Under the pieces are notes generated by a model. The model was not told the origin of the DNA and did not search any database. It was given only the letters and a program-made list of their open reading frames with translations. 49,738 nucleotides of DNA from Chitinophagaceae bacterium (GTDB taxonomy: Bacteria > Bacteroidota > Bacteroidia > Chitinophagales > Chitinophagaceae). The stretch lies in assembly GCA_031417315.1 (NCBI GenBank), contig JANOVK010000216.1:1-49738 (forward strand), read 5' to 3'. Position 1 is the stretch's first letter, and each line of letters starts with the position of its first letter. Below are positions 11,027 through 37,679 of the stretch, one piece after another. A program made the translations under genes and the position numbers.

Positions 11027-11040
11027 ATCTACAATTAATT

Positions 11041-14999: not shown

Positions 15000-15033
15000 G
15001 GATTAAGGAATTATCTTTATGTTAATGCTACTA

Positions 15034-21806: not shown

Positions 21807-22817
21807 ATGAGTGCAGAAAAAATAATTTCAGATTTAAGAAAAAAGAACTTTAAGCCAATTTATTGGTTAGAAGGTGATGAACCTTTTTTTATTGATGAAG
21901 TAATGAATTTTGCTGAACATCATATTTTATCGGAAAGTGAAGCATCTTTTAATTTATCTATCTTTTATGGAAAAGATGCTGATTGGGCTGCTGTTTTAAA
22001 TGCATGTAGAAGATACCCTATGATGTCTGATAAACAAGTTGTTTTATTAAAAGAGGCCCAACAAATGAGGCCAGATGATTTAGAAAAAATTGAAAGTTAT
22101 TTTGAAAATCCACTTATCTCTACAATTTTTGTTATTAGTTATAAAGACAAAAAATTAGATGCACGAAAAAAAATTGTAAAAAATATAAAATCGAAAGGTG
22201 AATTATTTACCACTAAAAAAATATACGACAATCAATTGCCAGAATGGATTAATTCGATAGTTCACAACAATGGATTAACAATAAACCCAAAAGCAATAGC
22301 TATGATTGTTGAAAACATTGGCAACGATTTAAGTAGAATAAAAAATGAAATTGAAAAAATTAGTATTAATTTAGGCAAGAGAAAAAGCATCAATGAAGAT
22401 GACATAGAATTGTATATTGGAGTTAGCAAAGAATACAATGTTTTTGAACTACAAAATGCAATTGGAAAAAAGAATATATCGAAAGCCTTAAAAATTATTC
22501 AATACTTTGAAAAAAATCCTAAAGCTGCACCAATTCAATTAATACTTCCTTCACTGTACAGTTTTTTTAGTAAAGTATACTCTATTTTTTCTGCCCCATC
22601 AAAAAATGAAAAAGAAATTGCAATTTGGTTAGGCATTAATCCATTTTTTATTAAAGATTATTTGGCAGCTGTAAACAATTATCAACTAAAGGGTATTGAA
22701 AAAATACTTTTATTATTACATCATTATAATTTAAAAAGTGTGGGTATTGGAAATAATAGCAGCACAACATCTGATGCTGATTTATTAAAAGAATTGGTTG
22801 TTAAAATAATGGCATAA
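21807..22817 (+). CDS. holA: DNA polymerase III subunit delta
   Basis: 336 aa. The N-terminal block (KPIYWLEGDEPFFID), size and helical C-terminal domain are typical of HolA. Confidence 0.8.
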   Translation: MSAEKIISDLRKKNFKPIYWLEGDEPFFIDEVMNFAEHHILSESEASFNLSIFYGKDADWAAVLNACRRYPMMSDKQVVLLKEAQQMRPDDLEKIESYFENPLISTIFVISYKDKKLDARKKIVKNIKSKGELFTTKKIYDNQLPEWINSIVHNNGLTINPKAIAMIVENIGNDLSRIKNEIEKISINLGKRKSINEDDIELYIGVSKEYNVFELQNAIGKKNISKALKIIQYFEKNPKAAPIQLILPSLYSFFSKVYSIFSAPSKNEKEIAIWLGINPFFIKDYLAAVNNYQLKGIEKILLLLHHYNLKSVGIGNNSSTTSDADLLKELVVKIMA

Positions 22818-22850
22818 AAAAAGCCTGATTGCAAATTAATCAGGCTTTAA
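22816..22850. terminator. Bidirectional terminator between holA and the convergent EPS-module operon
   Basis: 9-bp stem: agcctgatt (22822-22830) pairs with aatcaggct (22838-22846), with a 7-nt loop. An A-run precedes it and T residues follow. Confidence 0.6.
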
Positions 22851-22865
22851 ATTAGTTAAAATAAA

Positions 22866-24500
22866 CTATCCACCACGTCCTTCATCTAAACGATAAACAG
22901 CCCAATTTTCAGTTTCAAACATTATTACTGGATGAACTAAGCCATTGTTTGTTATTCTATTTAAATTATACTGATTTAAAACAGTAAAACTTTTTAATCT
23001 ATTTTTTTCTTTTGCAATACAAATATATTTTGCTTCTACTTTAGGATTTTCTGCAACAGTAATAAAGTATGTATTAATTGGTAATATTACATTACTACTT
23101 AGTTGTCTCATTTGTGCTACAATAGAATAAGCTGCAGCATCATCCATTAGAATTCTACCATTATCGCCATTTTTCTCAGCATTCATTAAATTAGTAATGT
23201 ATGATGCCATTCTATGCTCCTCAGAAACTTTTCTTGATCCTGATTTTTTTGCTACATTTTTAACAGAAGCAAAAAAACTTCTTTCTTCTTTATCACTTGT
23301 TTGTCTGAAATAATAAACACCAGCTAGAATATTTAAAAAGGCAACAACTATAATAATTGGATACATATTTGTGCCAGTATACTTTCTACCTGTATAATAA
23401 TATATTCCAATTAATGCCAATACCAAGAAAATTAAATAATATTCTATGGTTAAATAGGTTTGATTATCTAACAATAAAATTCCAATAAATAAAAACGGTG
23501 ATAATAAAGTTAACAGCTCATACAATCTACCTTTAAACATAGCAAATACTAAAATAAATAAAGGAGTTAAAGCTAACAAATATCCTTGAAAAACTATTTG
23601 AGTTTGAGCAACAACATTTGTTCCTACAAAATTTGCAGAAGATGTTTTATAATAATCTATTCCAGTAAAAATGCTACCTAATGTTTCTGTTCCAGTAATA
23701 CTCCAATTTGCATATTGACTAGTTAAGAAATAAGTTGCATTACCAGCATGCACTTGGTTTAGTAATTTAAAAAGATATACTGAACTTAATGGTAAAATAA
23801 ATAGAATTATATAAATTGCTATGGTTCTATTGGTAAGTTTTCGTCTTTGAGAACGATTGTTTATTGACTCGTAATATTGAACAATAGGAGAACCATGTTT
23901 TGATTGTTTAACTCCTTCGAGAGAAATTAAAACAACAAACGGCATTAATGCAAGTAATAACCAAATAAAATTATAATTACAAAAAATTAAACAAGTTAAA
24001 TAAATACTTGCCATTGATAAAGAAAACGTTGTTTGTGTTTTATAGTAAATAAACAAACTTCTAAATAACAAGTAAAAAAAAAGCAATAGCAGTGCAATAC
24101 TTCTGCCTGTTACAGCAGTATAAACTAATCCAGGATGCAATAAAAACAACATACAAAGCATTGGAATAAAAAACTTTTTCTGCAAACTTGTTTTCGAAAA
24201 ATCTTGCACTAATAACAAAAACAAAATAGTAGTAAAAGTTACTGAAGCTAAAATGGGTGCAAATGGATATCCAAATAAAGAGAATACTACTGTAGATAAA
24301 TAAACAAGGGTAGGAAAAGTAGTACCCAAAATTAAAAGGGTATTCTCTTTTGCTTCAAACAACAAACGAGATTTCTCTGCTAAGAATAAGGCTTCAGAAT
24401 GTTCATATCCTGTTCTATGTAATACCCAAGCTATAATTAAATAATAACTTAGCAATACAATAGCTAATAAAACTGGGACATATTTTTTTAAAAATACCAT
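22866..24500 (-). CDS. 544-aa polytopic membrane protein with C-terminal soluble domain, function unknown (last gene of the EPS-like operon)
   Basis: At least 10 hydrophobic helices over aa 1-400, then a soluble tail of about 140 aa. Starts 5 nt after the GT2 stop. I recognise no catalytic motif. Confidence 0.6.
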   Translation of the reverse strand: MVFLKKYVPVLLAIVLLSYYLIIAWVLHRTGYEHSEALFLAEKSRLLFEAKENTLLILGTTFPTLVYLSTVVFSLFGYPFAPILASVTFTTILFLLLVQDFSKTSLQKKFFIPMLCMLFLLHPGLVYTAVTGRSIALLLLFFYLLFRSLFIYYKTQTTFSLSMASIYLTCLIFCNYNFIWLLLALMPFVVLISLEGVKQSKHGSPIVQYYESINNRSQRRKLTNRTIAIYIILFILPLSSVYLFKLLNQVHAGNATYFLTSQYANWSITGTETLGSIFTGIDYYKTSSANFVGTNVVAQTQIVFQGYLLALTPLFILVFAMFKGRLYELLTLLSPFLFIGILLLDNQTYLTIEYYLIFLVLALIGIYYYTGRKYTGTNMYPIIIVVAFLNILAGVYYFRQTSDKEERSFFASVKNVAKKSGSRKVSEEHRMASYITNLMNAEKNGDNGRILMDDAAAYSIVAQMRQLSSNVILPINTYFITVAENPKVEAKYICIAKEKNRLKSFTVLNQYNLNRITNNGLVHPVIMFETENWAVYRLDEGRGG

Positions 24501-24505
24501 GGCTT

Positions 24506-26359
24506 TTATATTGCTGGTACAGCAGCATTAGTTGAATGTTGCTTGCTGAGACCGTGATGAGTTTTTTCCCAATAAAATGGTTTATAAATCAACTGCCATA
24601 ATCCTTTATAAGCAGCAACTGAGTGCATTAGCCAATAAATAGGATTTAAAGCAGAGAATAGAATGAGTTCATAATAACGACGTTTGAAAACTGCCATCAT
24701 ATTTACATAAATCATTAAAACATTTCCTGCAACGAAATTGAATGTTGCAAAATATAATACCCAATCTGGAAACACAGTTTTTACACCAGATATATTAAAT
24801 ACTAAATACACTAAGAAGAAAAGTAATAATATCGGATATATTAAAAATGTTATTGCTGTTCCTCCAATAAAAAAGTTAAATCCAAAAAAACCACCCCAAC
24901 CAATACGTCTGATTAAATTTATTGGAGATCGCATGTGCACCAAGTAGGTTTGCATATAACCTTTAATCCATCTGCTTCTTTGTCTAATCCAGTTAAAGGG
25001 TTCATTGTTTGCTTCTTCGTAAGTAGTACTTTTTACAATACCAATTTTGTATTGTTTATCGTAAACTCGAACTCCTAAATCTGCATCTTCAGTTACGTTA
25101 AATGGATCCCAACAACCAAGTTCAATTAATTTATCAAGTTTAAAGTGATTGCTTGTGCCTCCCAATGGTATTGGCACATCTAAGGTTTCTAATCCAGGCA
25201 ACATATAATCAAACCAATAAGAATATTCTAAGGTAAACATTCTTGTTAATAGGTTTTCGTTTCTATTAAAATAGTTTAATGCACCTTGTACAACCACGTA
25301 TTCTTTTGGAAGTTTTTTAAACATTAAAAATGCTTTTTTCAATTGCCAAGTATCAGGAATATCTTCAGCATCATAAATGGTTAGTAACTCACCACGTGAA
25401 AAGAAAATGCCATAATTACAAGCTTTTGGTTTTGTTTTTGGCATCATAAAAGGTACAACAACTACTTCAAAATTTGCAGGGAAATCTAAATCTCTAACAG
25501 CATTTAAAGTTTCGTCGTCATCTTCTTCTATCAATAATTTTACATCCAATTTTTCTTTAGGATAGTTTAATCCTTTCAAATTCCAAATTAATTTTCTAAT
25601 TAATTTATCTTCTTTATATACTGGAAGTAAAATAGTGTAAACAGGAACTTCTTCATTTTTTAAAGCACCTAATTCCTCAATAGATACATCATCGTGCAAC
25701 TCAGATTGAGATCCTTTTAATGCCAAGTATAATTTAAACATTATTGAACCCAAGAATGCTACACTAGCTAAAAAGTTTAAAGCAATAATGGTTGGAATGG
25801 AATAAACAAACAACATCACAACAACGAATCCAACCATACCAAAAATAAATAATAATTGAGAATCGGTAAAAGTTATATGGCCAGAACTCGAAGGATCTTT
25901 TTTTAATAAACTATAAACTGCTTCGTTTACTAATTCTCTTCCTCTAATGGTATGTGCAAGCCAAATAATATCCAAATCGTCTGCAGCTACAAGTTTAATA
26001 TTTGTTCTAAACTTTGCCATTAAACTGTTGGCAAGTCTTTCATCAAAAGGATCAGCGGCAGCTACCAATAAGCTGCCGTCGAAATCTTGTTTTAAAGGTA
26101 TATATAAGAAAGAATTGATATGATGGATATCGCATTGATTTAAATACGATGGATCAATTTCATAATTTCTCACATCAACTATTTCTTTTCCTTCGTTCTT
26201 AAGAAAAATTTTGTACTCTTTTCTTGTTAAAAATCCAAAGCATAGTGCAACCTTTATAGGGGCGTAACTATATGTAGTTGCAATTGCTTCTACTCTATCT
26301 TGTTTTTCGGTATCAAAATTATTTTTAGATACCATTAAATCTATTGCACTACGAATCAT
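24506..26359 (-). CDS. Processive family-2 glycosyltransferase (synthase) with N-terminal T2SSE_N/MshEN-like domain
   Basis: - aa 75-140 resemble the GspE/PilB N-terminal domain (FLYIPLKQDFDGSLLVAAADPFDERLANSL...KLVAADDLDI).
- Two TM helices follow.
- The GT-A core has LLPVYKED, DAED (330-333), TED (423-425) and QRSRW (460-464).
- There are four or more C-terminal TM helices.
- There is no PilZ domain. Confidence 0.85.
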   Translation of the reverse strand: MIRSAIDLMVSKNNFDTEKQDRVEAIATTYSYAPIKVALCFGFLTRKEYKIFLKNEGKEIVDVRNYEIDPSYLNQCDIHHINSFLYIPLKQDFDGSLLVAAADPFDERLANSLMAKFRTNIKLVAADDLDIIWLAHTIRGRELVNEAVYSLLKKDPSSSGHITFTDSQLLFIFGMVGFVVVMLFVYSIPTIIALNFLASVAFLGSIMFKLYLALKGSQSELHDDVSIEELGALKNEEVPVYTILLPVYKEDKLIRKLIWNLKGLNYPKEKLDVKLLIEEDDDETLNAVRDLDFPANFEVVVVPFMMPKTKPKACNYGIFFSRGELLTIYDAEDIPDTWQLKKAFLMFKKLPKEYVVVQGALNYFNRNENLLTRMFTLEYSYWFDYMLPGLETLDVPIPLGGTSNHFKLDKLIELGCWDPFNVTEDADLGVRVYDKQYKIGIVKSTTYEEANNEPFNWIRQRSRWIKGYMQTYLVHMRSPINLIRRIGWGGFFGFNFFIGGTAITFLIYPILLLFFLVYLVFNISGVKTVFPDWVLYFATFNFVAGNVLMIYVNMMAVFKRRYYELILFSALNPIYWLMHSVAAYKGLWQLIYKPFYWEKTHHGLSKQHSTNAAVPAI

Positions 26360-26421
26360 AAGTTAATACTTTCAAAAGGATGAATTATTGCTTAATACAT
26401 TTTACAATTTATTAAGCTATT

Positions 26422-28449
26422 TTAAACAACCGAATCAGTAGCTTGTTTAACTCTGCCTTTAACCATAAAATAGCCAAGAATTAATAATACTATCAATAGG
26501 CCCATTACCCAGAACTTATAATTGTTCCAGAAACGTTCAAAGTCGCTCATATTATTTGCATAGCTAACTATATTATTATCTTCTGGTGCTTTAAAGAAAT
26601 AGTTACTGATACCATTATTATTAGCAATACAGATATTACTTTCAATTTCTGTTAACTGAGTACTAAAATTTTTCACTACACTTAAATATGAACCTTGAAT
26701 AGCACTATCTCCTCCTAATGAAGTTACCATTAAGACTGTGTTTCCTTTATCTCTAAAAATTTGAGCTAAACCACTATTAGAAAAATCGTTGATAGAATAA
26801 CTTGCAGCTCCTTGCATTCCTTTATAAATACTGAAATCTTTATCAAAACTGATAGGCAATACTTTGCTATCAAACTTTTTAATAAAATTATCATTTCTGT
26901 CAATCAATGCAATTAAATTATAATCAGCTATATCACCTACACTTGCAGAAGTTACAATTGGAGGAACTATTAGTCTGCTATAATCGTTCTTTAATGGAGT
27001 ATTAAGTTGATAATATATTTCACCAATTGAAGAAACCACTTTACCCAAAATATTTTGAGAAACTACTATTTTAGTTTGTTTTTTTCTAAATTCTGCCGGG
27101 AAATTAAAAAAGCTAAAGAATTTATTTTCTCTTTCTCCTGTGTAGGTTAAACTAGATGTTTTTGTATTAATAAATGCAAAGAAATTACTAAATCCATCTT
27201 TACACACATCCTTTCCTGGATAGAATCGAAATTCGATTTCTAAAGTATTGAACTTTGTAAGTAAATGTGTTTTTAAATCAATATCATTAATAAAGTTAGT
27301 TTTATCAGACAAGTTGCCATTATAAACTAAATTTTGATTTAAATAAACATTTACAAAACCTCTATCATCTGGTTTTAAAATTGAAAAATAGCTCTCTAAA
27401 TGTAAAGTTAGTTTTGTTGGAATTGCATTAAAATTAGCCAAAGAAAAATTGAATTTTTTACGCAATGCACCAATACCTTCCATTAAATCACTATTACCAC
27501 CCATATCGGCTAAAGGTGTAACTAATGGAGATGCTCCTGCAACAATTTCAGTAGATATAGTTGCATCAGATATTAATAATTTATCTGTAAATGCACTACT
27601 TAATCTTTTATTACTTGCTAGTGTATTAATTGCTTTTTTGTAACCTGCATTATCGCCTCCAGTAATTACCATCACATAACGTTGGCTCATACCTACATTA
27701 ATAGGCACTAATGCAATTAAACCCTGACCAGAAGAAACTGCAGGCAATGCTTGTTTAACAGAATAGGGAAGTTTATCTGAAACTCCAGCAATAATGCCAC
27801 CTGGCACAGAATCTTGAGGAGAATAAGTTGCAGTAAACACCTGTTTAGATGCTGCACCTTGACGAACAATTGCATAAAGCAATCCTCCTGCCATTAAATC
27901 ATCAATGTCTGCTTGATCTGGTGTATAAACTGAATTATATTCTTGAATCATCTCTTTAATACTTCTTTGATAATTGAAAGTATTTTGAGTTGTAGCAGCG
28001 ATGTAAGAAGAGTTTTTAACTCCTAACCAACAAGCTGGATTATCAATATCTTTACAATACTCATCTCCAACACTCATTTTAGCAGCTATTCGAAGTTTAA
28101 TAAATCTGCCATCTGGTTGTAAATATTTTGTGTTTAGAGGAACTCTAACACTCAAAACAGTATCAACTGCAGAAGTAACTATTCTTTGTGTGTATACTGG
28201 TTCATCTCGTAAGTAAACCACAACAAAAGAATTGTTTGGATTAAGAACTTGTGAAGCTCTTAGGTTAATTACTAAACTACATTGATCGATATTATCATCT
28301 GGCTTTACTTTAAGAAAATAACTTAAAGAACCTGAGATACCATTGATGGATGCATCATCGTAGCCCATTGACTTGAAAGTCCTATCTTGTGCGTTTATTT
28401 GTAAAGCACAAAAAATTAAAGCTACGGATAAAAGAAATTTAGATTTCAT
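26422..28449 (-). CDS. BcsB-like periplasmic synthase partner (signal peptide plus C-terminal TM anchor)
   Basis: Signal peptide MKSKFLLSVALIFCALQINAQ. Two internally similar halves are visible (SLSYFLKVKPDD...VVVYLRDEPVY and LHLESYFSILKPDD...VNVYLNQNLVY). A single C-terminal TM (FWVMGLLIVLLILGYFMV) follows. The topology matches BcsB, and the gene lies directly upstream of the GT2 synthase. Confidence 0.5.
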   Translation of the reverse strand: MKSKFLLSVALIFCALQINAQDRTFKSMGYDDASINGISGSLSYFLKVKPDDNIDQCSLVINLRASQVLNPNNSFVVVYLRDEPVYTQRIVTSAVDTVLSVRVPLNTKYLQPDGRFIKLRIAAKMSVGDEYCKDIDNPACWLGVKNSSYIAATTQNTFNYQRSIKEMIQEYNSVYTPDQADIDDLMAGGLLYAIVRQGAASKQVFTATYSPQDSVPGGIIAGVSDKLPYSVKQALPAVSSGQGLIALVPINVGMSQRYVMVITGGDNAGYKKAINTLASNKRLSSAFTDKLLISDATISTEIVAGASPLVTPLADMGGNSDLMEGIGALRKKFNFSLANFNAIPTKLTLHLESYFSILKPDDRGFVNVYLNQNLVYNGNLSDKTNFINDIDLKTHLLTKFNTLEIEFRFYPGKDVCKDGFSNFFAFINTKTSSLTYTGERENKFFSFFNFPAEFRKKQTKIVVSQNILGKVVSSIGEIYYQLNTPLKNDYSRLIVPPIVTSASVGDIADYNLIALIDRNDNFIKKFDSKVLPISFDKDFSIYKGMQGAASYSINDFSNSGLAQIFRDKGNTVLMVTSLGGDSAIQGSYLSVVKNFSTQLTEIESNICIANNNGISNYFFKAPEDNNIVSYANNMSDFERFWNNYKFWVMGLLIVLLILGYFMVKGRVKQATDSVV

Positions 28450-28460
28450 ATTATTTAAAT

Positions 28461-29840
28461 TTACTGGGTACTTGGGAATTCAATTTTAAAATAGTTACCT
28501 GTTGCATCTTCACTACTAAAAGTAAAAGATCCATTCATTGTTTCTACTAATTTTTTTGTTGCTGCTAAACCTAAATCGTTTAAAGCATTTTCATCGGTAA
28601 TAGAATTAATTTTTAGTTTGTTAACCATTTCGGTTAATTTTTCCATACCAATTGCAGCACCATGGCTTATAGTTTCTACTACAGCTTTTCCACCATTACT
28701 TTCTGCTCTAACTGTAATAATTGAACCAGGTTCGCTGTGTCGAATTACGTTATTCATTAGCTTACTTAAAACTTGTTCTGTAAACAATTTATCTAAGTAA
28801 ACTGGGTTAGCTGCCGGAGAAATATTTAATTGCAAACTCATATTTTTTAACATTGCTGATTCAGCAATTTCAAAAACAGCTTTTTCAACTTCCGGATTTA
28901 AATCGAAATTTTCTTTATTAAAATGAAGTGTAGATTCTTCTTTATTTGTAGTAGTTTCTGTTCCACTTAATTTTTGTGCTAAATAAATTAATTTATCATT
29001 TTGAGAAGATATAGAAGATATAATATCTAATTGCGATGGTAATAAGTTATAAGAATTAGATTTAATAGAATCGATAGAAGTTTTTACAGTATCAGAAAAT
29101 GTTTTATAGTCGTGCATTAGTACAGTCATGTTTTCTTGGCTGTTCACATTTACAACTTTTAACTTTCTGTTTGTTTCTTCAATTAAATAATGTTGGTCTT
29201 TTATTTTTTCATTTCTATCTACTAATTTTAAATTAGCTTCATTAATCATAATACTTCTTTCTGTATCTCTACATAATAAAGTAAATCTTGTATATGCTAA
29301 CAAACAAGAGAAAGCAGAAATTAAAAAATACACTCCACCACCATGGTCAATCATTATACTATACTTATCTACTCTATTTTTTAAAGAGTAAATAAAGAAT
29401 ATTACAATATAAGATGCAATGCACACGTATATTGAATTAATGGGTGGCCAGAAAATAGTTGTATTAACTATTAACATGACAATAGACAAAATTAGAAAGT
29501 AAGCCAACGTAGAACCTGATGTTGGAACTACACCACAGATTATTGCATGAACAAAAATGTTCACTCCAACAAACCATGATACAGTTTTAATATAGCTCCA
29601 ATTTTGTTTTGTTGAATAAGTGTATATTAAATAAGATACACCCCAACCTATTAGGCGAATCAATGTAAAGTCTAACCACAAGTCGCGAGAAAATAAGTAA
29701 TCTATTAAAAGAAACAAGGGCAGTGAAAACAAAGTTGTCCACATAACAACGTTTGCATAATACTTCCCTCTTTTACTTAATTCTTGGGTAAAAACATTTT
29801 TGTTGATATTCGCGTAAGAAAATTTGTAATCGTTATACAT
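28461..29840 (-). CDS. Membrane sensor histidine-kinase-like protein with degenerate ATP-binding boxes
   Basis: - About six N-terminal TM helices and a coiled-coil linker.
- H-box-like VLMHDYKTFSD.
- N-box LMNNVIRHS.
- G1 position reads SHGAA instead of DxGxG.
- G2 reads NDLGLA.
- I prefer the ATG at 29838-29840 (MYNDYKF...) to the GTG at 29882 used in the ORF track. Confidence 0.6.
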   Translation of the reverse strand: MYNDYKFSYANINKNVFTQELSKRGKYYANVVMWTTLFSLPLFLLIDYLFSRDLWLDFTLIRLIGWGVSYLIYTYSTKQNWSYIKTVSWFVGVNIFVHAIICGVVPTSGSTLAYFLILSIVMLIVNTTIFWPPINSIYVCIASYIVIFFIYSLKNRVDKYSIMIDHGGGVYFLISAFSCLLAYTRFTLLCRDTERSIMINEANLKLVDRNEKIKDQHYLIEETNRKLKVVNVNSQENMTVLMHDYKTFSDTVKTSIDSIKSNSYNLLPSQLDIISSISSQNDKLIYLAQKLSGTETTTNKEESTLHFNKENFDLNPEVEKAVFEIAESAMLKNMSLQLNISPAANPVYLDKLFTEQVLSKLMNNVIRHSEPGSIITVRAESNGGKAVVETISHGAAIGMEKLTEMVNKLKINSITDENALNDLGLAATKKLVETMNGSFTFSSEDATGNYFKIEFPSTQ

Positions 29841-29850
29841 ATTTATTTTT

Positions 29851-31008
29851 ATGCAGTCAAATTTTGATAAATGCTTAATCACATTTCTTGATGTGAAAAT
29901 AACAACTAAGGTTTCAAGATTACTTATCTTGATAACTTTTTATTTCTTACTCTCTCAATTCACATTTTGTGTAAAAAAGGGATTTCCTACTTTACCCGAA
30001 ATAAAAAATAGCTTGGGTAGTGGTACTAATTTATCGTGGTATGAACACACCTGGTCATCGCCTGAAACCCTATTAAAAGCTGATGTTGCAGCCAAATTAA
30101 CACAGATAGCAAATCAAGGATTCAAGACAGTTAGATTACCTGTTGCATTTGATTTATTTGTTTATCCTAACTCATCAACACTACAACCAGAGCTTTTAAA
30201 AAAGCTAAAAGAAATTTATTATACTTGTTATAATTTAAAGTTGCATTTAATTATTACATATCACTACGGAATTTTTGATGAGAACAGTTTATACAACGAA
30301 GAAATAAATCATGTGTCATGGCTTTGGAAGCAAGTACAGCAAGAGTTTAAGGGTCATGGATATGATTATCTTTTTTTTGAATTATATAATGAACCAACTA
30401 TGGGAGCATTTCGCTGGAAGCTTACCGTTGAGAAATTAATTAGTTATATTAGGCAAGAGGATCCAAGTAGAATATATATTATTGGTGGTACAAATTATAA
30501 TGGATTAAATGATTTAATTGAGCTTGGAAAACTAAAAGATGAAAAATTATTTTACACTTTTCATTTTTACGAGCCTTATATTTTTACACATCAAGGTGCA
30601 GACTGGACAATTGATAAAACTTATATGAAAGGATTCCCCTATCCATATAGAAGAAAAAAAATGCCACCAATGAGTAAGGATGCAATTGGCACTTCTGTTG
30701 AAAAAGATTATACAAAATATTATTACGAAGGCACTAAACAATATATAACTAGTAGGCTAAGGGAAGTAGCTGGTTTTTGTTTAAGAAACAACATGCCACT
30801 TATATGTACAGAGGCTGGAGTTATTGATATTGCTGATGTTGAGTCGAGAGCAAACTATTTAAAAGATATTACTTTAAGTATGCACGAATATAGAATTCCA
30901 TTAACATTATGGGACTATGATCAAAGATTTAAAATATTAAAAGACTCAACAACATTATTTAAAACTTTACAGCCATGGATAAGGAAAAGTAAAAGAGGTA
31001 CTAAATAA
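29851..31008 (+). CDS. Glycoside hydrolase family 5 (cellulase/mannanase-type), secreted or membrane-anchored
   Basis: GH5 acid/base motif FFELYNEP and nucleophile context LICTEAG. The hydrophobic N-terminus is RLLILITFYFLLSQFTFC. An alternative in-frame GTG at 29893 would give MKITTKVSRLLIL..., which looks more like a signal peptide. Confidence 0.8.
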   Translation: MQSNFDKCLITFLDVKITTKVSRLLILITFYFLLSQFTFCVKKGFPTLPEIKNSLGSGTNLSWYEHTWSSPETLLKADVAAKLTQIANQGFKTVRLPVAFDLFVYPNSSTLQPELLKKLKEIYYTCYNLKLHLIITYHYGIFDENSLYNEEINHVSWLWKQVQQEFKGHGYDYLFFELYNEPTMGAFRWKLTVEKLISYIRQEDPSRIYIIGGTNYNGLNDLIELGKLKDEKLFYTFHFYEPYIFTHQGADWTIDKTYMKGFPYPYRRKKMPPMSKDAIGTSVEKDYTKYYYEGTKQYITSRLREVAGFCLRNNMPLICTEAGVIDIADVESRANYLKDITLSMHEYRIPLTLWDYDQRFKILKDSTTLFKTLQPWIRKSKRGTK

Positions 31009-31013: not shown

Positions 31014-32321
31014 TTAATTACATCTATAAATTTCAGCACCTAAGGCACGAAATCTTTCATCAATTTTTTGGTAACCTCTATCTATTTGTTCAATGTTTTG
31101 AATAACACTTTTTCCTTCAGCACTTAATGCTGCAATTAATAAAGCTTGCCCTGCTCGAATATCAGGACTGCTCATCGTTATTCCACGAAGTTTATTTTTT
31201 CTACCTAAGCCTATAACTGTTGCCCTATGTGGATCGCAGAGAATTATTTGTGCACCCATATCAATTAATTTATCAACAAAAAACAACCTGCTTTCGAACA
31301 TTTTTTGATGAATTAATATACTTCCTTTTGCCTGTGTTGCTATTACTAAAACTATACTTAATAAATCTGGAGTAAATCCTGGCCAAGGATGGTCGTACAT
31401 TGATAATACACTTCCATCTAAAAATGTTTGAATTTCATAAACATCTTGTTCTGGAATATAAATATCATCTCCTTTTATTTCAAGTTTAATTCCAAGCTGC
31501 TGAAATTTTTCGGGTATCATTCCTAAATGTTCAACACCTGCATTTTTTATTGTTAAACTACTTTGTGTCATAGCTGCTAAGCCAATAAAACTGCCCACTT
31601 CAATCATATCTGGCAGCATGGTATGATTGGTTCCATTCAACTTTTCAACACCATTAATAATTAACATATTGCTACCAATACCTTTAATATTAGCACCCAT
31701 TCGAACTAACATTTTACATAACTGTTGAATATAAGGTTCGCATGCAGCATTATAAATTGTTGTTTCGCCTTCTGCTAAAACCGAAGCCATTAAAATATTT
31801 GCAGTACCAGTAACCGAGGGCTCATCGAGTAACATAAATGCACCAAATAATTTATCAGCTTTTACAATAAAAATATTTTTTATATTATCGTAAATAAAAG
31901 TTGCACCCAATTTTTCAAAGCCAATAATATGTGTATCTAATCTTCTTCTTCCAATTTTATCTCCACCTGGTTTTGGAATAAACGCTTTTTTAAATCTTGC
32001 TAACATTGGCCCAGCAAGCATTACAGATCCACGAAGCATTCCACCTTTTTTTCTAAACTCATCGCTTGCTAAATAATCAATATTAATATTATCTGCTTTA
32101 AACGAATAAGTATGAGCATCAAATTTGTTTACTACAACGCCCATTTCTTTTAATAAATCAATTAAAAGATTTACATCAATAATATCTGGTATATTAGAAA
32201 TAATAACTTCTTGTGCAGTTAATAAAACTGCACTAATAATTTGCAAGGCTTCATTTTTTGCACCTTGAGGAATTATGGTTCCACTTAACTTTTTACCTCC
32301 TATTACTTCGAAACTTGCCAT
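31014..32321 (-). CDS. murA: UDP-N-acetylglucosamine 1-carboxyvinyltransferase (Asp in place of the fosfomycin-target Cys)
   Basis: EPSP-synthase/MurA fold motifs (QGAKNEAL, KPGGDKIGRRRLDTH), 435 aa. Residue 121 is Asp (codon 31959-31961). Confidence 0.95.
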   Translation of the reverse strand: MASFEVIGGKKLSGTIIPQGAKNEALQIISAVLLTAQEVIISNIPDIIDVNLLIDLLKEMGVVVNKFDAHTYSFKADNINIDYLASDEFRKKGGMLRGSVMLAGPMLARFKKAFIPKPGGDKIGRRRLDTHIIGFEKLGATFIYDNIKNIFIVKADKLFGAFMLLDEPSVTGTANILMASVLAEGETTIYNAACEPYIQQLCKMLVRMGANIKGIGSNMLIINGVEKLNGTNHTMLPDMIEVGSFIGLAAMTQSSLTIKNAGVEHLGMIPEKFQQLGIKLEIKGDDIYIPEQDVYEIQTFLDGSVLSMYDHPWPGFTPDLLSIVLVIATQAKGSILIHQKMFESRLFFVDKLIDMGAQIILCDPHRATVIGLGRKNKLRGITMSSPDIRAGQALLIAALSAEGKSVIQNIEQIDRGYQKIDERFRALGAEIYRCN

Positions 32322-34259: not shown

Positions 34260-37200
34260 TTAAAGTTTAATAATTTTCTGAGTAATTTGTGCTTCTTTTA
34301 ATAACAAACTTATTTGGTATAATCCAGCATTTAAATAAGAAACATTAATTTTATTTGTCTGAAACCCTTTTCGTAACTCGATTTTATTTGAACTAACTAT
34401 TCTCCCATATAAATCTGTTATAAGTATTGTTGCAAATTCTGACTTATTTGAATTTATATTTAAATTAACTAAATTATCAATTGGATTTGGATAAATACTA
34501 AATGCATTGATTTCGCTTTTTGTAATATTTATAGAGCTCACCTTAGAATATGAATATTTTCCATTATTATCAATTTGTTTTAATCTATAATAATTTATTC
34601 CGTTAAATGGATTTTTATCATTAACAAAATATTCATTAATGGTAGACTGATTTTTTGCTATTACTGAATCCAAACTATAAAACTCTACACCGTTGCTTGA
34701 TTTTTCTACAATAAAATTTTTATTATTAATTTCATTTGTAGTTCTCCAATGTAACTGAACAGTTCTATTATTATTTAAATTAGCTTGAAAAGATAGTAGT
34801 GTTACAGGCACAACGCCTGTTTTTGTGTACCATATAGGTGATGTAATTGTTCTATTGCCAGCAATTGTTATATCTGCATAATAATAACCTGTAGAACCTT
34901 CAGGTATTAAGTTATCTGAATAAAATAAATTATTTCCACTCATAGATGAAATTTGAATAGGCAAATTTCCTGTGCCAATTGTGCCATACATTAATTTAAT
35001 AAAAGGAGTTGCAACTGAGTTTGATGGATCTATAGCATAAACACTTATTGCAGGTGCATTAGAACCAGAAATGATACTTCCCATTACTTCATTATTAATA
35101 GTAAAATTTACTCTGGTATCACAATCTTCTGTTGCATAAAATCTTCTTGCTTTCATTGCCCCATAAAAATTTAAACTATTAAGTGCAGGTGCAATTACAG
35201 CTAAACGATTATTATTACTTCTACCAAAATTTGTGTTATGAGAATCATGATCCATTAATGGTCCAATGTGATATCCTTTAGAAAGCATTTTATTATAAAA
35301 ATCAATATATCTCATTGATGTTGGAGGATCGCTATAGGTTGTATTTGTAGAAAATGCTGGTCCACTTGCTATTGCAGATCCAACAACAGCACTATCTGCA
35401 GATGCATTATAAGAAATATTTGATAAGTTATTATAATCTGCAAAATCGGGATGAGCAAATGTGGCAAAAGCATTTAGCCCACTATTATTTAAATTATTTA
35501 TTGTTCTAAATAAACCTGTAGTTGAAGTAGATTCTGGCGAACCTATATAATCACTCTTTGGAACATAAATATTATAATTACCGTTTTCCCAACCTATTAA
35601 ACTATTTGTACCATAAATTAAAACATGTCCTCCATTTGCAATAACGCCATATTCCATTCCATACAAAGCTAAAAAATTAGAAGATGTTGCTGCTGCTGCT
35701 TGATTTAAACCTGGTTGAAAATTTGATAATAGCATATTTGCACCAGAGTGATTATGATCTGAAATACCTAAAAAATCCAAACACAAAGAATTTTTTGCAT
35801 AAGCATAATTATCAGCTGGAGTGAAAGATGTATTATCTACATTGCCATCAGAATAAGATGAATGAGCATGCAGATTACCAAAATAATAATTATATACTGA
35901 AGATGATGTTGTAGTGGTATTTGCTGTTAATGGATTTAATGTTTGATACATTGGCGATGTGCCTGTACAAATATTATTTCTAGAAAAAACAAAATAATAA
36001 TATTGAGTAATACTAGTTAATCCATTATCTAAAAAAGAACTTGAAGTATTATTAGAAACAACTGTTCCATTGCCAATTATATTTCCAGCTACATAATTTA
36101 TTCCATTTACTGGTAAACTTGATAATGTTGTCGATAAACTTCTAACTACTAAATATCCATCTGCAACTGTAGTAACAAAATATCCATTTACAGAATTATT
36201 TGTAGCCGTTAAATTTAATTGCGTAGGCTGTGCAATTGGTGCTACACAAATTGGTAAAGAAAAAGTTGTAGCATTTGAAGTAAGGGGCAACACTGTTCTA
36301 TAAGCAGGACCATTATTACAATTTTGGCTTTGTATTGCAAAAACATAAAAGAAATATTGAGTGCCACTTATTAAATTTGATGAAGTAAAACTGGTAATCG
36401 AAGTTCGCGTAACTACTGTACCATTACCCAAAACATTTCCACCATTATATACAGTTCCATTATTTAAAGTGCCGGTAAAAGTTGAAGATAAAGATCGAAT
36501 AACTAAATATTCATCTGTATTTAAAGCTGCATCAAAAGTTCCAGAAATGCTTGTTGTAGAAATGCTATTAAAAATTAATGAAGTAGGTTGTGCTAACGGT
36601 GCAACACAATTTATTGGACCAGATAAAGTAGTTGCAGATCCCACCATTGCTGGTAAATTAGAATAAAGTGGCCCACCTGTACAAGCATTGTTCATAGAAA
36701 AAACAAAGAAATAATATGTTGTAGAATTTGATAAACCCGTTGCTGTTACTGTATTTCCACTGGTAATTGAAATTACAGTTCCATCTCCTAAATTATCTCC
36801 TAAATTATAATTATAAAAATTTACAGGGTCGGAACTTAGCAAACTATTACTGCTCATAACTACTAAATAATTATTTGGAGCTGGAGAAGCTGGAGAAAAA
36901 GAAAACTGAATTGAATTATGTAATACTGTATTTGTAAAAAATCCAAAGGGCTGTGCAGTTGGCGTAGTACATGGTATTGTTGGCAATGCAGTTACTTTTA
37001 TATTATCTAAACTAATTCTGGGTCTTGAACCTCCCGTTCCACCAGTACCATTTGAATAATAAAATCGTAATCGAGCAGATGATGAACCACTAAAATTAGC
37101 AGGCAATGCAATATTACTAATGCTTCCAGAAGTTGGGCTATTATTTGTAAAATTTAAAACCTGTGCTAAGGGTAGTTCTGTAAAACTAACGCCATCAATA

Positions 37201-37679
37201 GACCCATAAACTCTTAAAGACCCTTTTCTATCTCCTGTACTATTATTTAACGAAGCCCAATCAAAACTAATCGTACCAGCATTTACAGTTGTGAAATTTA
37301 AAAAAAAATCAATTGCAATTGAAGAAGTGTTATCTGTTGTTCCAGATGAAATCATAAAAACAGATTGAGAACCTCTATAAAAACCAGAGCTATAAAAAGT
37401 TCCTCCGGGTGTTTGAAAAAAAGTAGAAGCATTTGTTATTCTTGTTCCATTAGGAATAGATCCAACTCCACCCACATCAATTCCTTTCCAAGCCGAAGCA
37501 CCACTTCCAGAAACAAAATTTCCATCTGCTGGTAAACTATTAAATATCCAATTACTAATATCAGAAAAGTTTTCTGTGTATGAAAGACCAGATTGAGCAG
37601 CCATATTAACTGGCGTTTGAGAAAATGCTTGATTAACCATGTAGAAAAACACAATAAATACTAATGTCATTTTTTTCAT
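34260..37679 (-). CDS. 1139-aa T9SS-secreted multidomain protein with three tandem FN3-like modules and a PHP metallophosphoesterase domain
   Basis: Signal peptide MKKMTLVFIVFFYMVNQAFSQ. Three modules of about 115 aa follow. PHP motifs are NLHAHSSYSDGN and ISDHNH. The C-terminal Por/T9SS sorting domain reads FSIYPNPIDNLVNLNI...GLYQISLL...KIIKL. Confidence 0.8.
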   Translation of the reverse strand: MKKMTLVFIVFFYMVNQAFSQTPVNMAAQSGLSYTENFSDISNWIFNSLPADGNFVSGSGASAWKGIDVGGVGSIPNGTRITNASTFFQTPGGTFYSSGFYRGSQSVFMISSGTTDNTSSIAIDFFLNFTTVNAGTISFDWASLNNSTGDRKGSLRVYGSIDGVSFTELPLAQVLNFTNNSPTSGSISNIALPANFSGSSSARLRFYYSNGTGGTGGSRPRISLDNIKVTALPTIPCTTPTAQPFGFFTNTVLHNSIQFSFSPASPAPNNYLVVMSSNSLLSSDPVNFYNYNLGDNLGDGTVISITSGNTVTATGLSNSTTYYFFVFSMNNACTGGPLYSNLPAMVGSATTLSGPINCVAPLAQPTSLIFNSISTTSISGTFDAALNTDEYLVIRSLSSTFTGTLNNGTVYNGGNVLGNGTVVTRTSITSFTSSNLISGTQYFFYVFAIQSQNCNNGPAYRTVLPLTSNATTFSLPICVAPIAQPTQLNLTATNNSVNGYFVTTVADGYLVVRSLSTTLSSLPVNGINYVAGNIIGNGTVVSNNTSSSFLDNGLTSITQYYYFVFSRNNICTGTSPMYQTLNPLTANTTTTSSSVYNYYFGNLHAHSSYSDGNVDNTSFTPADNYAYAKNSLCLDFLGISDHNHSGANMLLSNFQPGLNQAAAATSSNFLALYGMEYGVIANGGHVLIYGTNSLIGWENGNYNIYVPKSDYIGSPESTSTTGLFRTINNLNNSGLNAFATFAHPDFADYNNLSNISYNASADSAVVGSAIASGPAFSTNTTYSDPPTSMRYIDFYNKMLSKGYHIGPLMDHDSHNTNFGRSNNNRLAVIAPALNSLNFYGAMKARRFYATEDCDTRVNFTINNEVMGSIISGSNAPAISVYAIDPSNSVATPFIKLMYGTIGTGNLPIQISSMSGNNLFYSDNLIPEGSTGYYYADITIAGNRTITSPIWYTKTGVVPVTLLSFQANLNNNRTVQLHWRTTNEINNKNFIVEKSSNGVEFYSLDSVIAKNQSTINEYFVNDKNPFNGINYYRLKQIDNNGKYSYSKVSSINITKSEINAFSIYPNPIDNLVNLNINSNKSEFATILITDLYGRIVSSNKIELRKGFQTNKINVSYLNAGLYQISLLLKEAQITQKIIKL
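35910..36971 (-). repeat. Three tandem repeats of about 345 nt (about 115 aa) inside the T9SS cargo gene
   Basis: Modules span aa 237-351, 358-472 and 478-590. Each begins C-x-x-P-x-AQP, contains YLV(V/I)xS...GNGTVV...(Y/F)(Y/F)F(F/Y)VF, and ends ...TT. Confidence 0.7.

What the first reader, a model, noticed from the sequence alone, without database searches (positions are those of the whole stretch)
22866..31008. Non-canonical Bcs-like synthase-dependent exopolysaccharide module
Four minus-strand genes are packed with 11-, 62- and 5-nt gaps:
- a sensor-kinase-like membrane protein;
- a 675-aa protein with signal peptide, duplicated periplasmic halves and a C-terminal TM anchor, which is BcsB topology;
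- a processive GT2 synthase with D,D,D and QRSRW motifs, i.e. the class that includes BcsA, PgaC, chitin synthase and hyaluronan synthase;
- a 544-aa polytopic membrane protein of unknown function.

A GH5 glycosidase (NEP and TEAG catalytic glutamates) is transcribed divergently from the same promoter region. Synthase plus BcsB-like partner plus dedicated glycosidase is the logic of cellulose-type systems. Several parts do not fit:
- the synthase has no PilZ domain;
- the hydrolase is GH5 rather than the GH8 BcsZ;
- there is no BcsC/TPR-porin-like outer-membrane exporter;
- two extra membrane proteins are present (a degenerate kinase and the 544-aa protein).

To my knowledge no such operon type is described among the classical bcs operon classes. 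The block sits between holA and murA, which are core housekeeping genes.
Basis: partly seen in the sequence, partly recalled or inferred. Interest (0 to 1): 0.75.

Follow-up and report, generated by a model that had tools for sequence, protein, structure and literature searches.

The report
Bacteroidota xag/sfz-type exopolysaccharide synthase operon
This is a real, widely conserved gene cassette for making and exporting a sugar polymer; it is not a new kind of system but the Bacteroidota version of the poorly studied "xag/sfz" cluster known from Xanthomonas and stalk-forming iron bacteria, with a different control module.

Summary
All five genes are present at the stated coordinates, with the stated 5-, 62- and 11-nt gaps. 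The 675-aa protein is a true BcsB-fold subunit: Pfam BcsB 4e-23, and the top 22 Foldseek PDB hits are all BcsB (E 9e-32).

The GT2 carries DAED, TED and QRSRW. It also has an N-terminal MshEN/T2SSE_N domain and is 41% identical over 614 residues to Sfz2, the XagB-like synthase of Mariprofundus.

The "unknown" 544-aa protein has a GT-C fold resembling STT3, PglB, ArnT and PMT. It is homologous to Sfz3/XagC (hhalign 96.6%).

The cassette is collinear in essentially all 80 related Bacteroidota genome loci. These include Chitinophagaceae, Sediminibacterium, Pedobacter and Spirosoma. Flanking genes differ outside the closest relatives.

The module is therefore the Bacteroidota form of the published bcsB-xagBCD / sfz1-4 cluster, not a new operon class. 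Three features differ from the described clusters:
- The canonical c-di-GMP-binding MshEN motifs are absent in 0 of 81 Bacteroidota synthases, but present in Sfz2 and in a Geobacillus and a Hyphomicrobiales homolog.
- A membrane histidine-kinase gene always leads the operon. It is degenerate in this window.
- The hydrolase is GH5 rather than GH113.

The polymer, its route across the outer membrane and its regulation are all untested.

The parts
28461..29840 (-). First gene of the operon: a membrane histidine-kinase-like sensor, with about 5-6 N-terminal TM segments, a coiled coil, a diverged DHp and an HATPase_c domain. The ORF extends to GTG 29882, but homologs start at the ATG at 29840.
   Evidence: HATPase_c 1.7e-11 with no HisKA hit. 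Hydrophobic segments at 42-204. In alignment A3 the H-box His is present here (MHDYKTF) but is replaced in L011, L077 and L079. The G1-box Asp is Ser here (ISH-GAAIG). N364 of the N-box is invariant. Deeper lineages have canonical HisKA, G1 and G2 boxes. The gene is conserved at this position in all loci with enough flank.
26422..28449 (-). BcsB-fold periplasmic subunit: N-terminal signal-peptide-like segment, two repeated halves and a C-terminal TM anchor.
   Evidence: Pfam BcsB 4.4e-23 in two stretches. AF2 model pLDDT 76.5. The top 22 Foldseek PDB hits are all BcsB chains (9fmt, 6yg8, 7l2z, 4hg6_B), with E down to 8.8e-32 and TM about 0.6 over the full length. TM segment at 645-663. Public annotation of homologs is 'BcsB'.
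24506..26359 (-). Processive family-2 glycosyltransferase (XagB/Sfz2 ortholog) with an N-terminal MshEN-like domain whose c-di-GMP motifs are degenerate.
   Evidence: Pfam Glyco_trans_2_3, Glyco_tranf_2_3 and MshEN. DAED330, TED423 and QRSRW460. 41% identity over 614 aa to Sfz2, E 9e-143. JGI names homologs 'glycosyltransferase XagB'. The nearest solved structure is BcsA, only at E about 6e-6. The scores against the CelA and PgaC equivalog models are far below their cut-offs. The MshEN motif regex matches 0 of 81 Bacteroidota homologs.
22866..24500 (-). GT-C-fold polytopic membrane protein (XagC/Sfz3 homolog) with a C-terminal soluble domain predicted to be periplasmic. It is a probable periplasmic-face glycosyltransferase.
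   Evidence: No Pfam hit for this protein. AF2 pLDDT 85.3, pTM 0.87. The top Foldseek PDB hits are all GT-C enzymes (STT3, DPY19, PglB, AglB, ALG9, ArnT, PMT), prob 1.0, TM 0.40-0.47. hhalign to Sfz3: 96.6%, E 6e-10. The C-terminal domain matches a Geobacillus 'GT39 family protein' at 95%. 12 of 48 diverse family members hit Pfam PMT_2 and 2 hit PMT. E36 in the first external loop is acidic in 36 of 48 members.
29851..31008 (+). Divergently transcribed, secreted (probably lipoprotein) GH5 endo-beta-1,4-glycanase. The likely true start is GTG 29893.
   Evidence: Pfam Cellulase 2.2e-32. NEP180 and TEAG320. The best solved relatives are FnCel5A, TmCel5A, CelC and CelH. A signal segment followed by a Cys is conserved in the closest relatives. 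Present and divergent in most related loci, but absent from one subclade.
22820..22848 (-). Terminator-like hairpin (11-bp stem plus a T run) 18 nt downstream of the last gene of the operon.
   Evidence: No terminator-like site lies between the four genes. The total count in the region is not above chance, so only the position is suggestive.

Best explanation
The block is the Bacteroidota version of the xag/sfz-type synthase-dependent exopolysaccharide system. It is a four-gene operon (kinase-like sensor, BcsB-like subunit, MshEN-GT2 synthase, GT-C enzyme) plus a divergent secreted GH5.

**Shown here**
- The GT2 has the D, DxD, TED and QxxRW signature of processive membrane synthases. It is orthologous to Sfz2/XagB.
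- The 675-aa protein has the full BcsB fold, with a C-terminal membrane anchor.
- The 544-aa protein has a GT-C fold and is homologous to Sfz3/XagC.
- The five genes travel together across deep Bacteroidota lineages while the flanking genes change.

**Inferred mechanism**
- The synthase polymerises a beta-linked hexose chain from a nucleotide sugar at the cytoplasmic face and threads it through its own transmembrane channel.
- The BcsB-like subunit sits over the periplasmic exit and guides the chain.
- The GT-C enzyme, whose first external loop carries a mostly conserved acidic residue, acts on the periplasmic face. Most likely it adds side-chain sugars from a polyprenyl-phosphate-sugar donor. 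Less likely, it ligates the chain to an acceptor.
- The GH5 lipoprotein trims or releases the polymer, as BcsZ does for cellulose.
- The backbone is most likely beta-1,4-glucan or beta-1,4-mannan/glucomannan. The GH5's closest solved relatives include the Thermotoga (TmCel5A) and Fervidobacterium (FnCel5A) Cel5A enzymes. From my own knowledge, not tested here, these act on both glucans and mannans. Sfz4 at the equivalent position is GH113. A Geobacillus plasmid copy sits beside a ManC-like gene.

**Inferred regulation**
- The proteobacterial and Geobacillus synthases keep canonical c-di-GMP-binding MshEN motifs. All Bacteroidota copies have lost them and have instead gained a co-transcribed membrane kinase.
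- Control has therefore probably shifted from c-di-GMP to this sensor. It may work by phosphotransfer to an unlinked regulator, or by direct contact with the relic MshEN domain.
- Direct contact is the more likely route in this window, where the kinase's ATP-lid Asp is lost.
For: - Gene content and motifs.
- BcsB fold.
- GT-C fold and family.
- Orthology of the synthase to Sfz2. 'XagB' naming of homologs.
- Published cluster descriptions: PMC4643136, PMC8250860, PMC3609779.
- Synteny in 80 genome loci plus 3 deeper metagenome loci.
- The same BcsB / GT2 / GT39-like trio sits on a Geobacillus plasmid next to a ManC-like gene.
- Sfz4 is GH113. GH5 relatives. GH5 signal segment and conserved Cys.
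- MshEN motif present in Sfz2, Geobacillus and Hyphomicrobiales homologs but in 0 of 81 Bacteroidota copies, and also absent in L084.
- Kinase degeneracy here against canonical kinases in deeper lineages.
- Terminator-like hairpin only after the last gene.
Against: - No biochemical or genetic data exist for any Bacteroidota member. Even for xag/sfz, the polymer structure is unknown in the papers read.
- No outer-membrane exporter lies in or next to the cassette, so true secretion is unproven. The product could stay in the periplasm or at the cell surface.
- BcsB-like against Sfz1 is only weakly similar at profile level (hhalign prob 29%, E 6e-4). The two are linked through the shared Pfam family and fold rather than direct orthology.
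- XagA, XagC and XagD sequences from Xanthomonas were not available. The link to xag rests on Sfz proteins, on published statements and on database names.
- The GT-C role is inferred from fold alone. E36 is acidic in 36 of 48 members, not all.
- Loss of the textbook MshEN motif does not prove loss of c-di-GMP binding.
- GH5 is missing in one subclade with no adjacent substitute, so it is accessory.
Confidence: 0.75

Rival explanations
1. It is a divergent but genuine cellulose (bcs) operon. On this reading the GT2 is a BcsA equivalent that makes plain beta-1,4-glucan with BcsB, and the GH5 replaces BcsZ.
For: - BcsB fold.
- BcsA is the nearest solved structure to the GT2.
- The GH5's closest solved relatives are endoglucanases.
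- Public annotation of homologs reads 'cellulose synthase/PGA synthase-like' and 'BcsB'.
Against: - The GT2 scores 44 bits against the CelA equivalog model, whose cut-off is 699, and it has no PilZ.
- It is 41% identical to Sfz2/XagB but matches BcsA only at E about 6e-6 over 210 residues.
- An obligate GT-C partner is not part of the bcs operon types as I know them.
- There is no BcsC, BcsZ, BcsQ, BcsE or BcsG.
- Related clusters carry GH113 and ManC-like genes, which point at least as much to mannose as to glucose.
Confidence: 0.12
2. It is not a polymer synthase system but a lipid-linked glycosylation pathway. On this reading the GT2 makes a glycolipid or polyprenyl-phosphate-sugar, as GtrB, DPM1 or monoglucosyl-DAG synthase do. 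The GT-C enzyme then transfers that sugar to a protein or envelope glycan.
For: - A GT2 paired with a GT-C is the logic of the Gtr, CsbB-YfhO and PMT systems.
- Some homologs are auto-annotated 'beta-monoglucosyldiacylglycerol synthase' (also noted in PMC4643136).
- No outer-membrane exporter is present.
Against: - The QRSRW and TED motifs, plus hydrophobic segments after the catalytic domain, match processive synthases. The best NCBIfam matches are PgaC/IcaA and CelA.
- A full-length BcsB-fold partner and a dedicated endo-glycanase have no role in single-sugar transfer.
- No GtrA-like flippase is present.
Confidence: 0.08
3. The cassette is decaying in this particular genome. The degenerate kinase, and frameshifts elsewhere in the window, could indicate that it is no longer functional.
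For: - The G1-box Asp of the kinase is lost and HisKA is not detectable.
- ftsI and rsmH look interrupted elsewhere in the window. This could reflect either assembly errors or gene decay.
Against: - All five ORFs are intact and full length. They share 77-88% identity with the closest relatives, and all catalytic motifs are kept.
- The same kinase substitutions are shared by many Chitinophagaceae genomes. They are therefore a conserved state, not recent decay.
Confidence: 0.03

Closest known systems
sfz1-sfz4 / 'bcsB-xagBCD' cluster of stalk-forming Fe(II) oxidisers (Mariprofundus, Ferriphaselus): Kato 2015 PMC4643136, Koeksoy 2021 PMC8250860
   Same: - Same core and same gene order: BcsB-like protein (signal peptide, two BcsB halves, C-terminal TM), then T2SSE_N/MshEN-GT2 with QxxRW, then a ~500-aa polytopic membrane protein, plus a clan GH-A glycoside hydrolase.
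- GT2 is 41% identical to Sfz2.
- The 544-aa protein is homologous to Sfz3.
   Different: - Sfz2 has canonical MshEN c-di-GMP motifs, two full copies plus two near-copies. The Bacteroidota proteins have none.
- The hydrolase is GH113 in sfz and GH5 here.
- sfz has no kinase gene. The paper describes additional sfz5 and sfz6 genes.
- BcsB-like against Sfz1 is only marginally similar in sequence.
Xanthomonas xagABCD biofilm polysaccharide operon (Tao 2010; PMC3609779)
   Same: - Database naming (KEGG/JGI 'glycosyltransferase XagB') places the GT2 in this orthologous group.
- Kato 2015 states that the sfz-type genes are similar to xagBCD.
- xag genes contribute to biofilm formation.
   Different: - No Xanthomonas sequences could be compared here.
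- Kato 2015 found no homolog of xagA in the Fe-oxidiser genomes, where a BcsB-like gene occupies the first position of the cluster.
- xag expression rises when rpfF, rpfC or rpfG is deleted. No equivalent regulator is linked here.
E. coli NfrB-NfrA-YbcH system (PMC8669469)
   Same: A processive GT2 fused to an MshEN domain. It is a synthase-dependent secreted polysaccharide system outside the classical Bcs, Pga, Alg and Pel sets.
   Different: [quoted passage not shown] Here it is N-terminal and lacks the motifs.
- Nfr has an outer-membrane TPR beta-barrel (NfrA) and YbcH, but no BcsB or GT-C partner.
Classical bacterial cellulose synthase BcsAB(ZC)
   Same: - BcsB fold.
- GT2 with D, DxD, TED and QxxRW. 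BcsA is the nearest solved structure.
- A dedicated extracytoplasmic endoglycanase.
   Different: - No PilZ, no BcsC, and GH5 rather than GH8.
- The GT2 is far below the CelA model cut-off.
- An additional GT-C enzyme and a kinase gene are present.
GT-C glycosyltransferases (PMT/GT39, ArnT/GT83, STT3/PglB/GT66)
   Same: The 544-aa protein shares the fold, the predicted N-in topology with a first external loop carrying a mostly conserved acidic residue, and a C-terminal soluble domain. 12 of 48 family members hit Pfam PMT_2.
   Different: - The window protein itself matches no Pfam model, and no PDB sequence by profile.
- Donor and acceptor are unknown.
- Pairing of a GT-C enzyme with a BcsAB-type synthase has not been characterised in the literature I could search.

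Membership tests
xag/sfz-type synthase cluster | GT2 with an N-terminal T2SSE_N/MshEN domain and QxxRW, orthologous to Sfz2/XagB | tested here: met
   Pfam MshEN plus GT2. QRSRW460. 41% identity over 614 aa to Sfz2, E 9e-143.
xag/sfz-type synthase cluster | BcsB-like subunit encoded immediately upstream of the synthase | tested here: met
   Pfam BcsB 4e-23. Foldseek hits to BcsB at E 9e-32. The gene order is the same as sfz1-sfz2. Direct profile similarity to Sfz1 is weak.
xag/sfz-type synthase cluster | Sfz3/XagC-like ~500-aa polytopic membrane protein immediately downstream of the synthase | tested here: met
   hhalign of profile A1 against Sfz3: 96.6%, E 6.4e-10, 415 aligned columns.
xag/sfz-type synthase cluster | Associated glycoside hydrolase (Sfz4/XagD-like) | tested here: inconclusive
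   A hydrolase is present, but it is GH5, whereas Sfz4 is GH113. The two are different families with the same likely role. The GH5 is absent in one Bacteroidota subclade.
xag/sfz-type synthase cluster | Canonical c-di-GMP-binding MshEN 24-residue motifs in the synthase | tested here: not met
   The relaxed motif of Wang 2016 (PMC5013675) was searched. It matched 0 of 81 Bacteroidota homologs, but matched Sfz2 and the Geobacillus homolog. Reading the Hyphomicrobiales N-terminus shows the same motif by eye.
Classical bcs cellulose operon | BcsA-type catalytic subunit (CelA equivalog) with a C-terminal PilZ domain | tested here: not met
   TIGR03030 scores 44 bits against a cut-off of 699. There is no PilZ hit in Pfam.
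Classical bcs cellulose operon | BcsB subunit | tested here: met
Classical bcs cellulose operon | BcsC outer-membrane TPR-porin and GH8 BcsZ | tested here: not met
   Neither is present among the annotated window genes nor next to the cassette in the related loci examined. The hydrolase is GH5.
Nfr system | [quoted passage not shown] | tested here: not met
   The domain order is reversed and the motifs are absent. No NfrA-like or YbcH-like gene is present in the cassette.
Pga (PNAG) system | PgaC/IcaA equivalog synthase with PgaA, PgaB and PgaD | tested here: not met
   TIGR03937 scores 51.6 bits against a cut-off of 422. No PgaA, PgaB or PgaD is present.
GT-C glycosyltransferase superfamily (for the 544-aa protein) | GT-C membrane fold | tested here: met
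   AF2 pLDDT 85. All significant Foldseek PDB hits are GT-C enzymes. Family members hit PMT_2 and PMT.
GT-C glycosyltransferase superfamily (for the 544-aa protein) | Catalytic acidic residue in the first external loop, and use of a lipid-phosphate-linked donor | tested here: inconclusive
   E36 is Glu or Asp in 36 of 48 diverse members. Donor use cannot be tested with these tools.
Two-component sensor histidine kinase (for the 459/473-aa protein) | HisKA/DHp with phospho-accepting His, plus an HATPase_c domain with N, G1 and G2 boxes | tested here: inconclusive
   - HATPase_c is met.
- HisKA is not detected here, and is detected in only 2 of 18 aligned homologs.
- The H-box His is present here but not invariant. 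The G1 Asp is Ser here.
- Deeper lineages have a canonical kinase.
- No response regulator is linked.

The most novel reading that the evidence does not exclude
In Bacteroidota, a phylum generally considered poor in c-di-GMP signalling (my own knowledge, not checked here), the xag/sfz-type synthase may have been rewired. The MshEN domain would have lost nucleotide binding and become the docking site for a dedicated, co-transcribed membrane (pseudo)kinase that gates the synthase directly. The obligate GT-C partner would make this a two-enzyme machine, with a processive GT2 inside and a lipid-donor GT-C outside. It would build a branched or covalently anchored beta-glycan without a dedicated outer-membrane porin. 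That would be a distinct class of synthase-dependent system, and the first defined for Bacteroidota.
Probability: 0.2. Interest if true: 0.7.

Novelty: new variant of a known kind. Interest (0 to 1): 0.45.

Why it matters
Synthase-dependent exopolysaccharide systems (Bcs, Pga, Alg, Pel, Nfr) are central to biofilm biology. The xag/sfz type is the least understood of them. Its polymer, the role of XagC/Sfz3 and its export route are all unknown in the papers I read.

This work contributes three things.
- It places a large set of freshwater and soil Bacteroidota in that family. 485 genome stretches encoded a relative, and the best 80, all examined, were annotated as Bacteroidota. They include the culturable genera Pedobacter and Spirosoma.
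- It identifies the unknown third subunit as a GT-C-fold enzyme. That gives a concrete, testable hypothesis of periplasmic decoration or ligation of the nascent chain, which also applies to the Fe-oxidiser stalk genes and to Xanthomonas.
- It shows a clean natural contrast in regulation between lineages: canonical c-di-GMP motifs versus lost motifs plus a dedicated kinase. This contrast could be used to study how MshEN domains control synthases.

It is not a new class of system. Its value is as an entry point to an under-studied one.

Tried and rejected
- A profile of the 544-aa family against PDB sequences found nothing, even at E 10. The fold search was needed.
- A profile of the BcsB-like family against PDB sequences found nothing at E 0.01, although Pfam and Foldseek are both clear.
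- hhalign of the 544-aa profile against the 581-aa membrane protein of the Hyphomicrobiales cluster was not significant (prob 4%). That protein cannot be claimed as a homolog.
- The Bacteroidetes-type promoter pattern (TTTG-N17-21-TAnnTTTG) and the sigma-70 scan gave no more matches than chance, and none at the divergent junction. No promoter is assigned.
- A literature search for MshEN in Bacteroidota found nothing relevant. I therefore cannot say the Bacteroidota variant has been described, nor that it has not been described in unsearched journals.
- The Roseobacter paper that mentions xagB gave only an expression datum.
- Rejected: that the GH5-less subclade carries another hydrolase next door. 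The neighbours are ABC-transporter, FtsZ, fatty-acid and LysM/SLT genes.
- Rejected: that the module is tied to holA and murA. Those flanks occur only in the closest relatives.

Full report
**1.

The ORF table gives four minus-strand genes:
- 22866-24500 (544 aa)
- 24506-26359 (617 aa)
- 26422-28449 (675 aa)
- 28461-29882 (473 aa)

They are separated by 5, 62 and 11 nt. A plus-strand ORF at 29851-31008 (385 aa) runs the other way. holA (21807-22817) and murA (31014-32321) flank the block.

Pfam hits:

| Protein | Pfam result |
|---|---|
| 617 aa | Glyco_trans_2_3 3.6e-17, Glyco_tranf_2_3 2.5e-14, MshEN 1.8e-9 at residues 59-141 |
| 675 aa | BcsB 4.4e-23, in two stretches |
| 473 aa | HATPase_c 1.7e-11 only |
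| 385 aa | GH5 Cellulase 2.2e-32 |
| 544 aa | no hit |

Two small corrections apply. Homologs of the kinase start at the position of ATG 29840, not GTG 29882. That ATG lies only 10 bp from the GH5 ORF's ATG at 29851. The GH5 more plausibly starts at GTG 29893, which gives a lipoprotein-type signal, MKITTKVSR...QFTFC, whose Cys is conserved in the closest relatives.

A terminator-like hairpin at 22820-22848 lies 18 nt after the last gene, and none lies between the four genes. The total count of such sites in the region is not above chance, so only the position is suggestive.

**2. The cassette is a conserved unit**

A scan of one genome per species found 485 stretches that encode relatives of the GT2. 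The best 80 loci were all annotated as Bacteroidota: Chitinophagaceae, Sediminibacterium, Hydrotalea, Parasediminibacterium, Pedobacter and Spirosoma.

tblastn of all five proteins shows the order kinase, BcsB-like, GT2, 544-aa on one strand wherever enough flank is present. Identities fall to 21-32% for the partners while the GT2 stays at 61-63%. The GH5 is divergent upstream in most loci but is missing in one subclade and in Spirosoma. In two of those GH5-less loci (L022, L078) the neighbours were checked, and no other hydrolase takes its place.

holA and murA flank the cassette only in the closest relatives. Three deeper metagenomic loci, about 35% identical in the 544-aa protein, keep all five genes in the same arrangement.

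**3. The 675-aa protein is BcsB-fold**

An AlphaFold2 model built with 32 homologs reached pLDDT 76.5. Its top 22 Foldseek hits in the PDB are all BcsB chains from E. coli and Rhodobacter. E goes down to 8.8e-32 and TM is about 0.6 over the whole length. The next hits are unrelated, with TM about 0.1.

A hydrophobic C-terminal segment at 645-663 is present. The N-terminus looks like a signal peptide by eye. NCBI already names homologs BcsB.

**4. The GT2 is an XagB/Sfz2 ortholog, not BcsA, PgaC or NfrB**

Its best solved relative is BcsA, but only at E about 6e-6 over about 210 residues. The NCBIfam equivalog models for PgaC/IcaA and CelA score 52 and 44 bits, against cut-offs of 422 and 699. 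JGI names several close homologs 'glycosyltransferase XagB'.

The literature gives the context.
- Kato et al. 2015 described a 'bcsB-xagB-xagC-xagD' cassette in stalk-forming Fe(II) oxidisers.
- Koeksoy et al. 2021 renamed it sfz1-sfz4 and described its parts:
  - Sfz1 has two BcsB-like domains, a signal peptide and a C-terminal TM.
  - Sfz2 is an N-terminal T2SS-E-like domain plus a GT2 with QxxRW.
  - Sfz3 is an unknown protein of about 500 aa.
  - Sfz4 is a glycoside hydrolase.

Using the Sfz sequences printed in that paper's supplement, the window GT2 is 41% identical to Sfz2 over 614 residues, E 9e-143.

The same family occurs on plasmids of other phyla. A Geobacillus conjugative plasmid carries a ManC-like gene, BcsB, the GT2 and a 'GT39 family protein' in a row. 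A Hyphomicrobiales replicon carries a 713-aa protein, the MshEN-GT2 and a 581-aa membrane protein. These are followed by a receiver protein and a HisKA kinase.

**5. The 544-aa protein is a GT-C-fold enzyme homologous to Sfz3**

It has no Pfam hit, and its profile hits no PDB sequence. All 118 word-sharing relatives are unnamed 'hypothetical proteins'.

The AlphaFold2 model is confident, with pLDDT 85.3 and pTM 0.87. Every significant Foldseek PDB hit is a GT-C glycosyltransferase: STT3/OST, DPY19, PglB, AglB, ALG9, ArnT, AftA and PMT. Probability is 1.0 and TM is 0.40-0.47.

Further links:
- The family profile aligns with Sfz3 over 415 columns at 96.6% probability, E 6.4e-10.
- Its C-terminal domain aligns with the Geobacillus GT39-like protein at 95%.
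- An exhaustive profile search of 1.84 billion representatives finds only 384 clusters at E <= 1e-3. Of 48 diverse members, 12 hit Pfam PMT_2 and 2 hit PMT.
- Position 36, in the first external loop just after TM1, is Glu or Asp in 36 of 48 members. That is where GT-C enzymes place their catalytic acid (my own knowledge of the family).

I did not find the GT-C identity of XagC/Sfz3 stated in the papers I could read. Koeksoy 2021 lists Sfz3 as unknown.

**6. The hydrolase and the likely polymer**

The GH5's closest solved relatives are FnCel5A, TmCel5A, CelC and CelH. From my own knowledge, the Thermotoga and Fervidobacterium Cel5A enzymes act on both glucans and mannans.

Sfz4, at the equivalent position in the Fe-oxidiser cluster, is GH113 by Pfam, 5.6e-39. 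To my knowledge GH113 is a beta-mannanase family. The Geobacillus copy sits next to a ManC-like nucleotidyltransferase. Koeksoy 2021 also notes a phosphomannose isomerase beside sfz.

A beta-1,4-linked glucan, mannan or glucomannan backbone is therefore the best guess. It is only a guess.

**7. Regulation differs from the described relatives**

[quoted passage not shown] Wang 2016 gives the relaxed form [RKPN]hGxxhhxx[GAS]hhxxxxhxxxhxx[QNKRYWST]. I searched for that pattern, and for its 12-residue core, in the first 160 residues of each synthase.

| Synthase | Result |
|---|---|
| Sfz2 | two full matches plus two near-matches |
| Geobacillus homolog | one full match, plus 'RLGELLVKEKLL' |
| Hyphomicrobiales homolog | 'PIGELLVAKGLL' and 'RFGDIILSKGWV' (read by eye) |
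| 81 Bacteroidota homologs, window included | no full match and no core match |

The deeper L084 lineage also lacks the motif.

In exchange, every Bacteroidota cassette starts with a polytopic membrane kinase gene. In deeper lineages and in Spirosoma it is a canonical HisKA+HATPase_c kinase, with H-box 'GHDLKNL', G1 'DEGIAIG' and G2 'GLGLS'.

In the window and many Chitinophagaceae, HisKA is no longer detectable and the G1 Asp is replaced by Ser or Asn. In some genomes the H-box His itself is replaced. No response regulator is linked.

My inference is that control moved from c-di-GMP to this sensor. Whether it acts by phosphotransfer or by contact with the relic MshEN domain cannot be decided here.

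**8. What remains open**

- No outer-membrane exporter is encoded in or beside the cassette in any locus examined.
- No Xanthomonas Xag sequence could be fetched, so the xag link is indirect.
- BcsB-like against Sfz1 is only marginally similar by profile.
- No experiment exists for any Bacteroidota member.

**9. Verdict**

The finding is real and well observed, but the claim of an undescribed operon type is not upheld. It is the Bacteroidota variant of the xag/sfz-type synthase-dependent system. Three points are new or unappreciated:
- the GT-C nature of the third subunit
- loss of the c-di-GMP motifs
- a dedicated kinase gene, degenerate in this lineage

The window itself is ordinary chromosomal Bacteroidota DNA. 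It holds a complete dcw cluster, queA, a Cu-ATPase, asd, mutL and a protein with a T9SS sorting domain.

Noticed in passing
window 12504-14626 (-): ftsI appears split into two ORFs. ORF 12968-14626 ends abruptly ('...SFAGFFLQIIHSLLVLL*'). ORF 12504-12944 carries the usual PBP C-terminal part ('YGAEVAGPVFKEIADRLY...'). This is a frameshift, an assembly error or a pseudogene.
   Followed up: partly
window 15000-15954 (-): The rsmH (MraW) ORF stops at '...ITFHSIED*' after 244 aa. It covers only positions 3-246 of the 309-position Pfam model. The remaining ~220 bp before ftsL has no clean continuation in frame. This is a probable second frameshift in the dcw cluster.
   Followed up: partly
window 34260-37679 (-): A 1139-aa protein whose only clear domain is a type IX secretion C-terminal sorting domain. 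Its function is unknown. It confirms a Bacteroidota origin.
   Followed up: no
window 29838-29895: The start codons of the kinase (ATG 29840, minus strand) and of the GH5 ORF (ATG 29851, plus strand) are 10 bp apart. Even with the likelier GH5 start at GTG 29893, the divergent genes share about 52 bp. Each promoter must therefore lie inside the other gene.
   Followed up: partly
L081 (Geobacillus stearothermophilus plasmid pEF60063-1) 4483-11220: A conjugative plasmid of a Gram-positive thermophile carries a ManC-like gene, BcsB, an MshEN-motif GT2 and a GT39-like protein, flanked by transposase and integrase genes. The core module is horizontally mobile and works without an outer membrane.
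   Followed up: partly
L082 (Hyphomicrobiales bacterium UR115 replicon) 5820-14070: An unannotated xag-like cluster: a 713-aa protein with no significant Pfam hit, a canonical MshEN-GT2 and a 581-aa membrane protein. It is followed by a receiver-domain protein with an unknown ~190-aa output and by a HisKA kinase. This is a second, independent association of this synthase type with two-component proteins.
   Followed up: partly
Sfz4 of Mariprofundus ferrooxydans PV-1 (sequence from PMC8250860 supplement): Sfz4, described in the paper only as a carbohydrate or cell-wall hydrolase, scores as Pfam GH113 at 5.6e-39. To my knowledge that is a beta-mannanase family, which hints that the stalk polysaccharide backbone may be mannan-like.
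   Followed up: partly
L084-L086 (metagenome contigs), genes at about 4640-6022: In deeper Bacteroidota lineages the cassette's kinase is fully canonical, with HisKA plus HATPase_c and intact H, N, G1 and G2 boxes. Kinase degeneration is therefore a derived state of the window's Chitinophagaceae lineage.
   Followed up: yes
window 188-2119 (-): FtsZ is 643 aa, with about 320 residues beyond the FtsZ_C domain. An FtsZ of similar length (630 aa) lies a few kb from the cassette in locus L022, probably by coincidence.
   Followed up: no
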